DNA of 64,000 nucleotides from Candidatus Binatia bacterium (GTDB taxonomy: Bacteria; Eisenbacteria; RBG-16-71-46; SZUA-252), in the NCBI GenBank assembly GCA_035631035.1, contig DASQJL010000113.1, positions 131,703 through 195,702 of the forward strand, given 5' to 3'. A program made the translations under genes and the position numbers. The notes under the pieces were generated by a model. It did not search any database and was not told the DNA's origin. It saw nothing but the letters and a program-made list of their open reading frames with translations. This document shows, one piece after another, positions 30,296 through 31,704 of this stretch (position 1 is its first letter; each line of letters begins with the position of its first letter).

Positions 30296-31627
30296 CTACT
30301 TCCAGTGGACGATCTTCTGAACCTTCTCGTCGAAGTTGAACGACGGGTCCTGCGCCGGGCTGTGGCAGGTGACACAGACCTCGGGGCCCACGACGTTCCC
30401 GGAGCCATGCGTGGTGCCCATGCCGTGGCAGTTCTCGCACTGCACGTTCACCAGGTCGGGCGTGCTCTCCTTGGAGACGAATCCGCCCGCCTGCCCCATG
30501 CCGGTGACGTGGCATGGGAGGCATTCCGGAGTGGAGTCGCGCTGGTTCTTGGTCAGCGTCGCGAACGCGTGCGCGTGCTGCTGGGTCGAGTACATCTCGT
30601 ACTCCGACTCGTGGCAGCGGCGGCAGTTCTTGTCGCCCAGGTAGTGGTCGGCGCTCAGGGCCTGCGAGGATTGCGCCGTCTGCTGCTCCACCGCCTTCTT
30701 CTGCTGCGCCTCGAAGCGTCGATTCAGTTCGTCCTGGAAATTGTCCACCATCTTGTTGGTGCTCTCGTCCGCCGGAATCTTGTCGTCCAGCGTCACGACC
30801 TCGCCGTCATAGGAGGCGATCTTGCCGTCCTGCACGACGAGGTGGATCGAGGGGATGTACTGGCCGCGCTCGCCGCCGCGCGCGTTGATGACCCCCTGGG
30901 TCTGGACCACCTGCTTGGAGAGGCCGGGGAGATGCCCGAAGACCATGACGTCGATGCCCGGGACCTCGATCGTGAGCTTCTGCCCGTCGGTGAGCCCGAG
31001 GTGCGAGAGGAGCACGACCACGTCGGCCTTCTTCCGGAGCTCGGGGATCAGCTTCTTCGCCGTCTCGGTCGGATCGAGGATCTCGAGCGGCTTGTCGCCG
31101 GCGTGCTGGCGGGTGATCAGGTCCTTCTGAATGAGGCCGGTGAACGCGACGCGCACCGTTCCCGCCTTCCGGATGACGTACGGCTTCACGAACGGCTTCT
31201 TGGTGTCGGCGTAGACCAGGTTCGCCGAGACGAGGTCGATCTTGGTCTTCTTGAAGGCGTCCAGCAGGAACGGCTGGCCGAACGAGAGCTCCCGCTCGCC
31301 GACCGTCGCCACGTCGTAGCCCAGCTTGTCCATCATCTGGACCATGAAGGCGGACTTCAGCGAATCCTGCTCCCCGGCGACGCCGAAGAAGTCTCCGGTA
31401 TCAACCGTGAAGTGGTTCGGGAACTTGAGGCTGCCTACCTTGAGTTGGCTCGCCCTCCGGGCGAGGCCGCCGAGCGGGTGCGCGTGTCAGCCACAGGGCG
31501 CGAGCTCGTTGAACACGTCGTTCGTGCTCTGGATCAGGATGTCCGTCTGGGAACCCTTGCCCTGGAGCGACGAGGCGGCAAACAGCAGCCCTGCAATCAG
31601 AAACAGGAGATAGCGGTAGCGATGCAG
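30296..31627 (-). CDS. 5'-nucleotidase/metallophosphoesterase-like domain fused to a C-terminal tetraheme cytochrome c. The reading frame is interrupted by one in-frame TGA (31487-31489) and lacks a canonical start codon (possible CTG start, recoded gene, or pseudogene)
   Basis: The frame downstream of the TGA reads HAHPLGGLARRASQLKV...GDFFGVAGEQDSLKSAFMVQMMDKLGYDVATVGERE... (5'-nucleotidase family), then CRRCH, CLPCH, CENCH and CVTCH heme sites. The same frame upstream reads (CTG)HRYRYLLFLIAGLLFAASSLQGKGSQTDILIQSTNDVFNELAPCG-TGA, a signal peptide plus the N-terminal metallophosphatase segment. The internal ATG at 31345 has no SD. Confidence 0.5.
31448..31469 (-). other. stable hairpin (CCUCGCCC-GGA-GGGCGAG) 17-38 nt 3' of the in-frame UGA; SECIS-like candidate
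   Basis: Seen directly: a 7-8 bp perfect GC stem with a 3-nt GGA loop immediately downstream of the UGA. Confidence 0.25.
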
Positions 31628-31674
31628 CGCGGATCACCTCCCTCGAATTCGATGTTCGGCCGAATGTCTGAAAA

Positions 31675-31704
31675 CTATACCCCGGACCCTCGGAACGGTT
31701 CAAC
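31675..31704 (-). promoter_or_regulatory. near-consensus sigma70 promoter (TTGAAC-18nt-TATAGT) for the 5'-nucleotidase/cytochrome gene
   Basis: Minus-strand TTGAACcgttccgagggtccggggTATAGT lies in a locally AT-richer intergenic stretch. A GAGGGAGGTGA SD follows about 40 nt downstream. Confidence 0.5.

What the first reader, a model, noticed from the sequence alone, without database searches (positions are those of the whole stretch)
30296..31704. 5'-nucleotidase/tetraheme cytochrome c fusion gene with a near-consensus promoter and SD, but no canonical start codon and an in-frame TGA followed by a hairpin
Seen in sequence. (i) A TTGAAC-18-TATAGT sigma70 promoter and a GAGGGAGGTGA SD sit upstream. 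(ii) The only in-frame start candidate before the signal peptide (RYRYLLFLIAGLLFAASSLQG) is CTG at 31627; the nearest in-frame stop lies just upstream at 31634-31636. (iii) 46 codons into the metallophosphatase N-terminal segment (..TNDVFNELAPCG) the frame hits TGA at 31487-31489. It then continues in the same frame for 396 codons through a conserved 5'-nucleotidase body and four intact CxxCH heme sites. (iv) A perfect 7-8 bp GC hairpin (CCUCGCCC-GGA-GGGCGAG) starts 17 nt after the UGA. Competing readings are recoding of the UGA (selenocysteine or readthrough), a recently inactivated pseudogene, or an assembly error. Independently of this, a periplasmic phosphoesterase fused to a multiheme cytochrome is an unusual architecture. 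The usual HTNDxHG metal-ligand histidines are replaced (QSTNDVFNE), which suggests a non-canonical or non-catalytic domain.
Basis: partly seen in the sequence, partly recalled or inferred. Interest (0 to 1): 0.75.

Follow-up and report, generated by a model that had tools for sequence, protein, structure and literature searches.

The report
Selenoprotein gene with CTG start
The "broken" gene is an intact member of a catalogued selenoprotein family (a UshA-like domain fused to a four-heme cytochrome) whose in-frame TGA encodes selenocysteine; the one mildly new point is that its whole clade starts at a conserved CTG codon.

Summary
On the minus strand there is a promoter, a 10-nt Shine-Dalgarno sequence, CTG at 31627, an in-frame TGA at 31489-31487, a downstream hairpin and four CxxCH sites. 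The hairpin starts 21-22 nt after the UGA, not 17.

The gene is neither a pseudogene nor an assembly error. It passes the curated cut-off of NCBIfam NF041198, "UshA-like (seleno)protein", motif PCGU. That profile covers both the phosphoesterase-like domain and the tetraheme domain, so the fusion is the family's normal architecture.

In 80 related loci, mostly Candidatus Eisenbacteria, 68 copies have TGA and 21 have Cys at this position. The reading frame is conserved on both sides of the codon. 67 of the 68 TGA copies have a stem of at least 6 bp downstream, and 62 carry a GGA or GGC loop. Synonymous sites in the stem covary. Cys copies encode the same peptide without this hairpin, which is the SECIS signature.

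CTG is the start codon in all 18 close orthologs examined, 4-7 nt after GGAGGTGA(T/A); one further relative (L005) has GTG one codon later.

Databases truncate these genes at the TGA. The biochemical function is unknown. No selenocysteine machinery genes lie in the window, and the rest of the host genome could not be searched.

The parts
31674..31703 (-). Sigma-70-type promoter: TTGAAC (31703-31698), 18 nt, TATAGT (31679-31674)
   Evidence: It is the only promoter-like site in 29000-32200. TTGAAC..GGGGTATAGT is conserved upstream of the orthologs. The upstream HU gene ends in a terminator-like hairpin at 31796-31768 plus a T run, so the gene has its own promoter.
31632..31641 (-). Shine-Dalgarno sequence GGAGGTGATC. 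By my own knowledge it is complementary to the 16S rRNA 3' end.
   Evidence: Read directly. (G/A)G(A/G)GGTGA(T/A) is conserved 4-7 nt before the CTG in the 18 close orthologs examined. The TGA and GTG inside it are in frame in some orthologs and out of frame in others, so it is not coding.
31625..31627 (-). Inferred non-canonical start codon CTG
   Evidence: CTG is present in the window and in all 18 close orthologs examined. L005 has GTG one codon later. Of 12 columns that are Leu in all 18 sequences compared, only this one keeps a single codon.
31559..31627 (-). Signal peptide (M)HRYRYLLFLIAGLLFAASSLQG, judged by eye: basic N-region, hydrophobic core, small residues before KG
   Evidence: Translation. 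An equivalent N-terminus is present in all orthologs. Export is required for c-type heme attachment (established knowledge).
31493..31495 (-). Cys45 codon (TGT) of the C-G-U motif
   Evidence: The Cys in the motif is kept in every copy found across the 80 loci (the motif search required it).
31487..31489 (-). UGA codon 47, read as selenocysteine
   Evidence: 68 TGA versus 21 TGC/TGT at the aligned position. The family motif is PCGU (NF041198).
31447..31467 (-). SECIS-type hairpin: core stem 31465-31459 / 31455-31449, loop GGA 31458-31456, with two outer G-C pairs
   Evidence: 90.1% of cells are paired, against 20-54% when the partner is slid. The covariation score is 0.222 against 0.119 in shuffles (0 of 500 reach it). 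Pair 27-39 shows CG 35, GC 23, UA 2, UG 2, GU 1. RNAalifold finds the same helix on its own. Cys copies lack the GGN-loop hairpin.
30728..31549 (-). UshA/CpdB/SoxB-like metallophosphoesterase-fold domain (about residues 27-300) with degenerate metal motifs
   Evidence: NF041198 profile positions 8-265. PDB sequence hits: 3jyf 3e-18 and 2z1a 6e-15, with the aligned motifs shown. Pfam Metallophos scores only 15.8 bits, below its cut-off.
30299..30655 (-). Tetraheme cytochrome c554-like domain (about residues 325-443; CxxCH at C335, C369, C397, C418)
   Evidence: Pfam PF13435, 62.3 bits. NF041198 profile positions 382-518, 109.5 bits for this part alone. 1bvb cytochrome c554, 2e-7. The Cys and His of all four sites are invariant in alignment A1.
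30296..30298 (-). Stop codon TAG
29290..30291 (-). Downstream gene, probably co-transcribed: a 333-aa protein with an N-terminal signal-like sequence and no known family
   Evidence: It starts 4 nt after the stop. It has no Pfam or NCBIfam hit. It lies directly behind the gene in L001-L020 at 33-89% identity.

Best explanation
This is an intact gene for a periplasmic selenoprotein of the catalogued "UshA-like (seleno)protein" family (NCBIfam NF041198, motif P-C-G-U).

Expression, as inferred. Transcription starts at its own promoter (31703-31674). Ribosomes are recruited by a 10-nt Shine-Dalgarno sequence and initiate at the near-cognate CTG at 31627. UGA codon 47 is decoded as selenocysteine by SelB and Sec-tRNA(Sec), bound to the hairpin 21 nt downstream (31467-31447). 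The 443-residue product has a signal peptide and would be exported unfolded. In the periplasm, four c-type hemes would be attached to the C-terminal c554-like domain.

Likely activity. The N-terminal domain keeps the 5'-nucleotidase/SoxB fold but has lost key catalytic residues: DxH has become DVF and GNHE has become GERE. It carries instead a Cys45-Gly-Sec47 pair in the loop after the first strand. The most likely function is therefore redox rather than hydrolytic, with a thiol/selenol centre exchanging electrons with the four hemes. The substrate is unknown; a sulfur or selenium compound is only a guess, based on the distant SoxB likeness.

Shown: family membership, the Sec/Cys pair, the covarying SECIS-type hairpin, the conserved CTG and SD, and the domain architecture. 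Inferred: actual Sec insertion, initiation at CUG, export, heme attachment and redox function.
For: - Family membership. NF041198 scores 287.8 bits against a curated cut-off of 275, E = 1.4e-85. The cytochrome part alone matches profile positions 382-518. The family is listed as a CxU selenoprotein in PMC2398784, PMC9312934 and PMC13188914.
- Sec/Cys pair. In 80 loci, 68 copies have TGA and 21 have TGC or TGT at the aligned position. The peptide is conserved on both sides..PCG[U/C]H..GGLARRA...
- Hairpin. 67 of 68 TGA copies have a stem of at least 6 bp; 62 of these have a GGA or GGC loop. No Cys copy has a GGN-loop hairpin, and 13 of 21 have stems of 5 bp or less.
- Covariation. The third position of the Leu codon covaries with the third position of the Ala codon: CG 35, GC 23, UA 2, UG 2, GU 1. 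90.1% of cells are paired, against 20-54% in slid controls, and 0 of 500 shuffles reach the score. RNAalifold agrees.
- Truncated database entries. All 120 best database homologs are called as 349-386 aa proteins that start after the TGA, i.e. without a signal peptide. A c-type cytochrome could not mature in that form.
- Start codon. CTG is present in all 18 close orthologs examined, 4-7 nt after GGAGGTGA(T/A). L005 has GTG one codon later. Other invariant Leu columns use 2-4 different codons.
- Degenerate motifs. They are read from the alignment to the T. thermophilus 5'-nucleotidase 2z1a.
Against: - No selA, selB, selD or tRNA-Sec is in the 64-kb window. The rest of the host genome could not be searched.
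- There is no protein-level evidence of any kind.
- CUG is a poor initiator in E. coli systems (PMC11497404). Initiation there rests on conservation only.
- The 66-nt region on its own folds no better than shuffles.
- The redox function is pure inference. No family member has a solved structure, and the papers held here give no assayed activity for it.
Confidence: 0.88

Rival explanations
1. Recently inactivated pseudogene: the TGA is a nonsense mutation and the gene is decaying.
For: There is an in-frame stop and no canonical start codon. All database homologs are truncated at the same point.
Against: The same TGA is present in 68 copies from many assemblies at 28-96% identity. The coding frame is conserved on both sides, and a hairpin maintained by compensatory synonymous changes lies downstream. 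Cys replaces it in 21 paralogs or orthologs. The family is a curated selenoprotein family.
Confidence: 0.02
2. Sequencing or assembly error created the TGA and/or destroyed an ATG start.
For: The window appears to come from an uncultured, 70% G+C organism: its nearest relatives are metagenome-assembled genomes (MAGs), and the best database protein is 95% identical.
Against: The identical TGA and CTG are found in independent assemblies from different studies and assemblers.
Confidence: 0.01
3. Two separate products: a short 46-residue peptide ending at the TGA, and a cytoplasmic 349-aa "multiheme cytochrome" starting at ATG 31345, as databases annotate it.
For: This is how GenBank and JGI gene calls describe the homologs.
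Against: Residues 48-94, between the TGA and that ATG, are highly conserved as protein and belong to the family profile. The called starts differ between orthologs. Without the signal peptide, c-type heme attachment could not occur (established knowledge).
Confidence: 0.03
4. UGA readthrough by a near-cognate tRNA (Trp or Cys) or another recoding route that does not involve selenocysteine.
For: Sec machinery was not seen in the window.
Against: The Cys alternates at this position, the neighbouring Cys of a CxU motif, and a conserved hairpin at the spacing used by bacterial SECIS elements (28 nt from the UGA to the loop, G in the loop; my knowledge of the bSECISearch rules) are all typical of Sec. 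The family is catalogued as a selenoprotein.
Confidence: 0.05

Closest known systems
NCBIfam NF041198, UshA_like_PCGU, "UshA-like (seleno)protein" (the "COG0737 UshA-like, CxU" selenoprotein of Zhang and Gladyshev)
   Same: It scores above the curated cut-off. It has the P-C-G-U motif, the N-terminal UshA-like domain and the C-terminal tetraheme domain, both of which lie within the profile. It also has Sec/Cys alternation and a downstream hairpin.
   Different: It sits at the edge of the family: 288 bits, against 337-352 for the two Thermodesulfobacteriota-type copies tested (L080, L075). Several Eisenbacteria relatives fall just below the cut-off at 254-274 bits. This clade uses a CTG start, and public records annotate its members as truncated proteins.
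NF049981, UshA-like (seleno)protein family 2 (CxxU)
   Same: The phosphoesterase-like fold is distantly related, and it also carries Sec near the first motif.
   Different: It scores only 42 bits against a cut-off of 140. The motif spacing differs (CxxU, per PMC13188914), and the profile is 262 positions long.
UshA / CpdB / 5'-nucleotidases (calcineurin-like dimetal phosphoesterases; PDB 3jyf, 2z1a, 1ush)
   Same: The fold and several motifs are shared: TND, GD, SHLG and GH are retained.
   Different: The His of DxH is replaced by Phe, and GNHE by GERE. There is no C-terminal nucleotide-binding domain; a tetraheme cytochrome takes its place. A Cys-Gly-Sec loop is inserted.
Thiosulfohydrolase SoxB (TIGR04486)
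   Same: It is the second-best NCBIfam match for the window protein and for most of the ten relatives tested (E = 3e-22 for the window). It is also periplasmic and acts in sulfur oxidation alongside cytochromes.
   Different: It scores 79 bits against a cut-off of 550, so the window protein is not a member. SoxB is a dimanganese hydrolase without hemes or Sec (established knowledge).
Cytochrome c554 of Nitrosomonas europaea (PF13435; PDB 1bvb)
   Same: It is a four-heme domain. Pfam scores 62 bits, and residues 329-406 align to 1bvb.
   Different: Here it is a C-terminal domain of a larger enzyme, not a free electron carrier.

Membership tests
NF041198 UshA-like (seleno)protein | Whole-protein score at or above the curated cut-off (275 bits) | tested here: met
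   287.8 bits, E = 1.4e-85, with U written as C.
NF041198 UshA-like (seleno)protein | P-C-G-[U/C] motif after the first beta-strand | tested here: met
   ..ELAPCG-TGA-H.. at 31501-31484. The motif is conserved in 89 copies.
NF041198 UshA-like (seleno)protein | Two-domain architecture covered by the 519-position profile | tested here: met
   Residues 14-263 match profile positions 8-265. Residues 306-432 match positions 382-518, 109.5 bits.
Bacterial selenoprotein gene (general) | The in-frame UGA aligns with Cys in homologs, with the frame conserved on both sides | tested here: met
   68 TGA, 14 TGC and 7 TGT at the same position.
Bacterial selenoprotein gene (general) | SECIS hairpin shortly downstream of the UGA, conserved as a structure | tested here: met
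   There is a 7-9 bp stem with a GGA or GGC loop, and the loop begins 28 nt after the UGA. Covariation and slid controls support it; RNAalifold agrees; it is absent from Cys copies. The spacing and loop rule is from my knowledge of bSECISearch.
Bacterial selenoprotein gene (general) | Host encodes selA, selB, selC (tRNA-Sec) and selD | not testable with these tools
   None was found in the 64-kb window: no tRNA, no Rfam tRNA-Sec, and no SelA, SelB or SelD domains in the ORFs scanned. The rest of the genome is not available.
Bacterial selenoprotein gene (general) | Selenium actually incorporated in the protein | not testable with these tools
   This needs 75Se labelling or mass spectrometry.
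Canonical 5'-nucleotidase / UshA (dimetal phosphoesterase) | Motif I D-x-H and motif III G-N-H-[DE] as metal and catalytic residues | tested here: not met
   In the alignment to 2z1a, DtH corresponds to DvF and GNHEF to GEREL.
Canonical 5'-nucleotidase / UshA (dimetal phosphoesterase) | C-terminal 5'-nucleotidase substrate-binding domain | tested here: not met
   Pfam finds no such domain. The C-terminus is Cytochrome_C554.
SoxB thiosulfohydrolase (TIGR04486) | Score at or above the curated cut-off (550 bits) | tested here: not met
   78.7 bits.
Cytochrome c554-like tetraheme domain (PF13435) | Pfam gathering score and four CxxCH sites | tested here: met
   62.3 bits against a cut-off of 20.8. 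The four CxxCH sites are invariant in orthologs.

The most novel reading that the evidence does not exclude
The most novel reading concerns the start codon. In this Eisenbacteria clade the selenoprotein is always initiated at CUG, paired with a near-perfect anti-Shine-Dalgarno complement. That combination would be a selected device, for example a translational throttle that matches ribosome traffic to the slow SelB-dependent decoding 46 codons downstream, or to export and heme attachment. It would not be an accident of annotation.

A second, independent possibility is that the Cys-Gly-Sec centre, in a phosphoesterase fold that has lost its catalytic residues, is a new kind of heme-wired redox active site acting on a sulfur or selenium compound.
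Probability: 0.2. Interest if true: 0.55.

Novelty: new member of a known kind. Interest (0 to 1): 0.3.

Why it matters
- It resolves an apparent gene defect as ordinary selenocysteine recoding in a family that is already catalogued.
- It is of practical use for annotation. All 120 best-matching public proteins of this family, mostly from Candidatus Eisenbacteria MAGs, are truncated after the Sec codon. They are labelled "multiheme c-type cytochrome", "2',3'-cyclic-nucleotide 2'-phosphodiesterase" or "hypothetical protein". They have lost the signal peptide and the active-site motif, and the CTG start adds a second obstacle to automatic annotation.
- A start codon that stays CTG across a clade with 67-96% protein identity is a clean natural case for studying non-canonical initiation in bacteria.
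- The family's chemistry is still unknown. A Cys-x-Sec centre in a degenerate phosphoesterase fold, fused to four hemes, remains a reasonable target for biochemistry.

Tried and rejected
Writing U as C is not an exact window sequence, and the DNA reference contains a stop codon. I did not model the truncated part or a Cys homolog, because the tools return no coordinates and could not place the CGU motif relative to the hemes.
- A search for Sec machinery found none. There is no tRNA in the window. The only Rfam hit is a cobalamin riboswitch. Pfam and NCBIfam scans of 37 window ORFs (8 + 10 + 10 + 10 queries; one ORF was scanned in both libraries, one further query was the gene's own C-terminal domain) found no SelA, SelB or SelD. 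The scan of the window's genes is incomplete.
- ARAGORN on 60 related loci found one 94-nt "tRNA-Ala" in L046. It lies in coding DNA and has no Rfam support, so I rejected it as a false positive.
- A crude scan of the window for other in-frame stops with coding signal on both sides found only adjacent genes that share a frame. It produced no second selenoprotein candidate. It also missed the target gene itself, so it is insensitive.
- A scan for other SD-plus-CTG starts in the window was uninformative. Clear gene starts there use ATG or GTG.
- A thermodynamic test of the hairpin region alone was not significant (z = -0.29). The comparative evidence was used instead.
- A literature search for Eisenbacteria plus selenocysteine, and for selenocysteine plus multiheme plus nucleotidase, found nothing.
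- No paralog of the gene is present in the window.
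Full report
**What is there.** The gene lies on the minus strand. 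A TTGAAC-18-TATAGT promoter sits at 31703-31674. It is the only promoter-like match in 29000-32200, where shuffles give a mean of 0.2. It follows a terminator-like hairpin of the upstream HU gene at 31796-31768. The sequence GGAGGTGATC (31641-31632) is followed, after 4 nt, by CTG at 31627-31625. The TGA inside that Shine-Dalgarno sequence (31636-31634) closes the frame upstream, and no ATG, GTG or TTG is available. From the CTG the frame reads (M)HRYRYLLFLIAGLLFAASSLQG-KGSQTDILIQSTNDVFNELAPCG, then TGA at 31489-31487 as codon 47. A further 396 sense codons follow, with four CxxCH sites, to TAG at 30298-30296. A 7-bp perfect hairpin lies downstream: CUCGCCC 31465-31459, loop GGA, GGGCGAG 31455-31449, with two more G-C pairs beyond a C/C mismatch.

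**Family.** With the stop written as Cys, the protein scores 287.8 bits on NCBIfam NF041198, "UshA_like_PCGU, UshA-like (seleno)protein". The curated cut-off is 275 and E = 1.4e-85. The family name gives the motif found here, P-C-G-U. Pfam sees only Cytochrome_C554 (62 bits) and a sub-threshold Metallophos match. The C-terminal 144 residues alone match positions 382-518 of the 519-position NF041198 profile at 109.5 bits. The tetraheme domain is therefore part of the family definition, not an unusual fusion. The family appears as "COG0737, UshA-like, CxU" in the 2008 ocean-metagenome selenoproteome paper (PMC2398784). It also appears in two reviews (PMC9312934 and PMC13188914). None of them assigns it a function.

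**Homologs.** The 120 best proteins in the 5.8-billion-sequence collection are 62-95% identical. Most of those with a source name come from Candidatus Eisenbacteria MAGs. All are 349-386 aa, and the 17 that I aligned all begin after the TGA position, at varying downstream start codons. This is what gene callers produce when they meet a conserved Sec codon.

A scan of GTDB species genomes confirmed 481 relatives and returned 80 loci. The search patterns lay in the cytochrome domain, so these relatives carry that domain by construction. Translating the loci through the stop shows the frame conserved on both sides..ILSTTDVKGKTSPCG*HTPKGGLARRASF.. and variants. At the aligned codon there are 68 TGA, 14 TGC and 7 TGT. 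This is the classic Sec/Cys pair. Ten diverse copies, Sec and Cys forms alike, all hit NF041198 at 254-352 bits. The two Thermodesulfobacteriota-type copies (L075, L080) score highest, and several Eisenbacteria copies fall just under the cut-off. The window protein is thus a peripheral but valid member.

**SECIS.**
- 67 of the 68 TGA copies have an uninterrupted stem of at least 6 bp starting about 21-25 nt into the downstream sequence. 62 of these have a GGC or GGA triloop.
- No Cys copy has a GGN-loop hairpin, and 13 of 21 have stems of 5 bp or less. Yet the Cys copies encode the same GGLARRA peptide with other codons.
- On an alignment of 64 distinct TGA copies, the 9-pair helix is 90.1% paired, against 20-54% when the 3' partner is slid by 1-3 columns. 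The covariation score is 0.222 against 0.119 in shuffles, and 0 of 500 shuffles reach it.
- The informative pair joins the third position of a Leu codon to the third position of an Ala codon: CG 35, GC 23, UA 2, UG 2, GU 1. These are compensatory changes at synonymous sites.
- RNAalifold finds the same helix without being told.
- The loop begins 28 nt after the UGA and starts with G. By my knowledge of the bSECISearch rules (16-37 nt spacing, G early in the loop), this fits bacterial SECIS elements.
- Folded alone, the window's 66 nt are no more stable than shuffles, so the case is comparative.

**Start codon.**
- The window and all 18 close orthologs examined (67-96% protein identity) read (G/A)G(A/G)GGTGA(T/A), then 4-7 nt, then CTG.
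- A further relative, L005, has GTG one codon later.
- The GTG and TGA inside the Shine-Dalgarno sequence are in frame in some orthologs and out of frame in others, so that stretch is not coding.
- Of 12 alignment columns that are Leu in all 18 sequences compared, only the first keeps a single codon. The other eleven use 2-4 different codons.
- The CTG is thus constrained as a nucleotide triplet at the right distance from the SD. It also precedes the basic residues that a signal peptide needs.
- More distant family members start with ATG.
- CUG is a weak, non-canonical initiator in E. coli systems (PMC11497404). Initiation here is an inference from conservation, at about 0.75 confidence.
- Other clear gene starts in the window use ATG or GTG.

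**The protein.** No family member has a solved structure. The nearest by sequence are the CpdB N-domain 3jyf (3e-18), the T. thermophilus 5'-nucleotidase 2z1a (6e-15) and, for residues 329-406, cytochrome c554 1bvb (2e-7). The alignment to 2z1a compares the motifs as follows.

| Motif in 2z1a | Window protein |
|---|---|
| HTNDtH | STNDvF |
| GDvF | GDfF |
| GNHEF | GEREL |
| LSHLG | LSHLG |
| GGHS | FGHL |

The CG[U] motif lies in the loop directly after motif I. The motif I histidine and the Asn-His catalytic pair are gone. In the HTPKGG clade even the bridging Asp is lost, giving VDNGGFFPE. What is invariant across the family is the C-G-U/C motif, the helix that follows it, and the four heme sites. 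I therefore infer a periplasmic redox enzyme. A thiol/selenol centre, sitting in a phosphoesterase fold that has lost its hydrolytic residues, would exchange electrons with four c-type hemes. The substrate is unknown. The distant SoxB likeness (79 bits against a cut-off of 550, so not a member) only hints at sulfur chemistry. This step is inference, at about 0.4 confidence.

**Surroundings.** The local gene order is lptD-like, HU, this gene, a 333-aa protein with a signal-like N-terminus and no known family (starting 4 nt after the stop), then pilB/gspE and pilC/gspF. This order is conserved in the close clade. The lptD neighbour recurs in distant Eisenbacteria loci. The window has no paralog. 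The window ORFs scanned (37 in all, in Pfam or NCBIfam) are housekeeping genes, with no SelA, SelB or SelD, and there is no tRNA. The host's Sec machinery therefore remains untested.

**Rivals.**
- Pseudogene and assembly error are excluded. The same TGA and CTG recur in many independent assemblies under purifying selection.
- The database reading, a 349-aa cytochrome starting at ATG 31345, ignores the conserved residues 48-94. It would also leave a c-type cytochrome without a signal peptide.
- Readthrough without Sec cannot be formally excluded without the genome or protein data. It does not explain the hairpin or the Cys alternates.

**Verdict.** This is an ordinary, intact member of a known selenoprotein family in a lineage close to Candidatus Eisenbacteria MAGs. 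The nearest is DASSLZ010000231 (L001): 96% identity for this protein and 97.5% for the neighbouring PilB. Two modest additions come out of the analysis. Public proteins of this family are systematically truncated at the Sec codon. The window's clade has an invariant CTG start behind a near-perfect Shine-Dalgarno sequence.

Noticed in passing
window 9648-9825 (-), with the ORF 9625-7532 (-): A cobalamin riboswitch (Rfam RF00174, 99.4 bits) lies directly upstream of a TonB-dependent receptor gene (Plug and beta-barrel domains). This is a typical B12-uptake arrangement.
   Followed up: partly
L028, L030, L033, L035, L041, L045, L048, L050, L053, L063; L043 7566: Many related loci carry a Sec (TGA) copy and a Cys paralog of the UshA-like/cytochrome gene within the same 13 kb. 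L043 has a second Sec copy of 316 aa that lacks the cytochrome domain.
   Followed up: partly
window 29290-30291 (-): A 333-aa protein with a signal-like N-terminus has no Pfam or NCBIfam match. It starts 4 nt after the selenoprotein's stop codon. It is conserved, though fast-evolving (33-89% identity), directly behind the gene in L001-L020, so it may be a partner protein.
   Followed up: partly
L021, L023, L024, L032, L039, L042, L043, L055, L059, L065, L071, L076, L079 and the window 32222-35740 (-): A very long LptD-like gene (1173 aa, with LptA/LptC-like N-terminal repeats) lies upstream of the UshA-like gene even in distant relatives. This is either conserved synteny within the phylum or a functional link.
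   Followed up: no
L075 6096-6160: The copy from a Thermodesulfobacteriota single-cell genome has the TGA but not the usual GGN-loop hairpin; its longest stem is 4 bp. Its SECIS, if any, has a different form.
   Followed up: no
L046 5748-5841: ARAGORN called a 94-nt tRNA-Ala just upstream of the family gene. It lies inside coding DNA and has no Rfam match, so it is a false positive.
   Followed up: yes
proteins P0001-P0120: All 120 best public homologs are annotated as N-terminally truncated proteins that start after the Sec codon. They are named "multiheme c-type cytochrome", "2',3'-cyclic-nucleotide 2'-phosphodiesterase" or "hypothetical protein". This is a systematic annotation gap.
   Followed up: yes
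loci of the HTPKGG clade, e.g. L022-L038: Motif II of the phosphoesterase fold is GG (VDNGGFFPE) instead of GD. The metal site is therefore more degenerate there than in the window's clade.
   Followed up: no
window 44870-47184 (-): Two adjacent open frames here read like membrane permeases, next to an ABC ATPase ORF at 47184-48110 (PF00005). My composition-based gene picker missed them because the long stop-to-stop frames diluted the signal. I judged them from the translation alone and did not scan them against any family library.
   Followed up: partly
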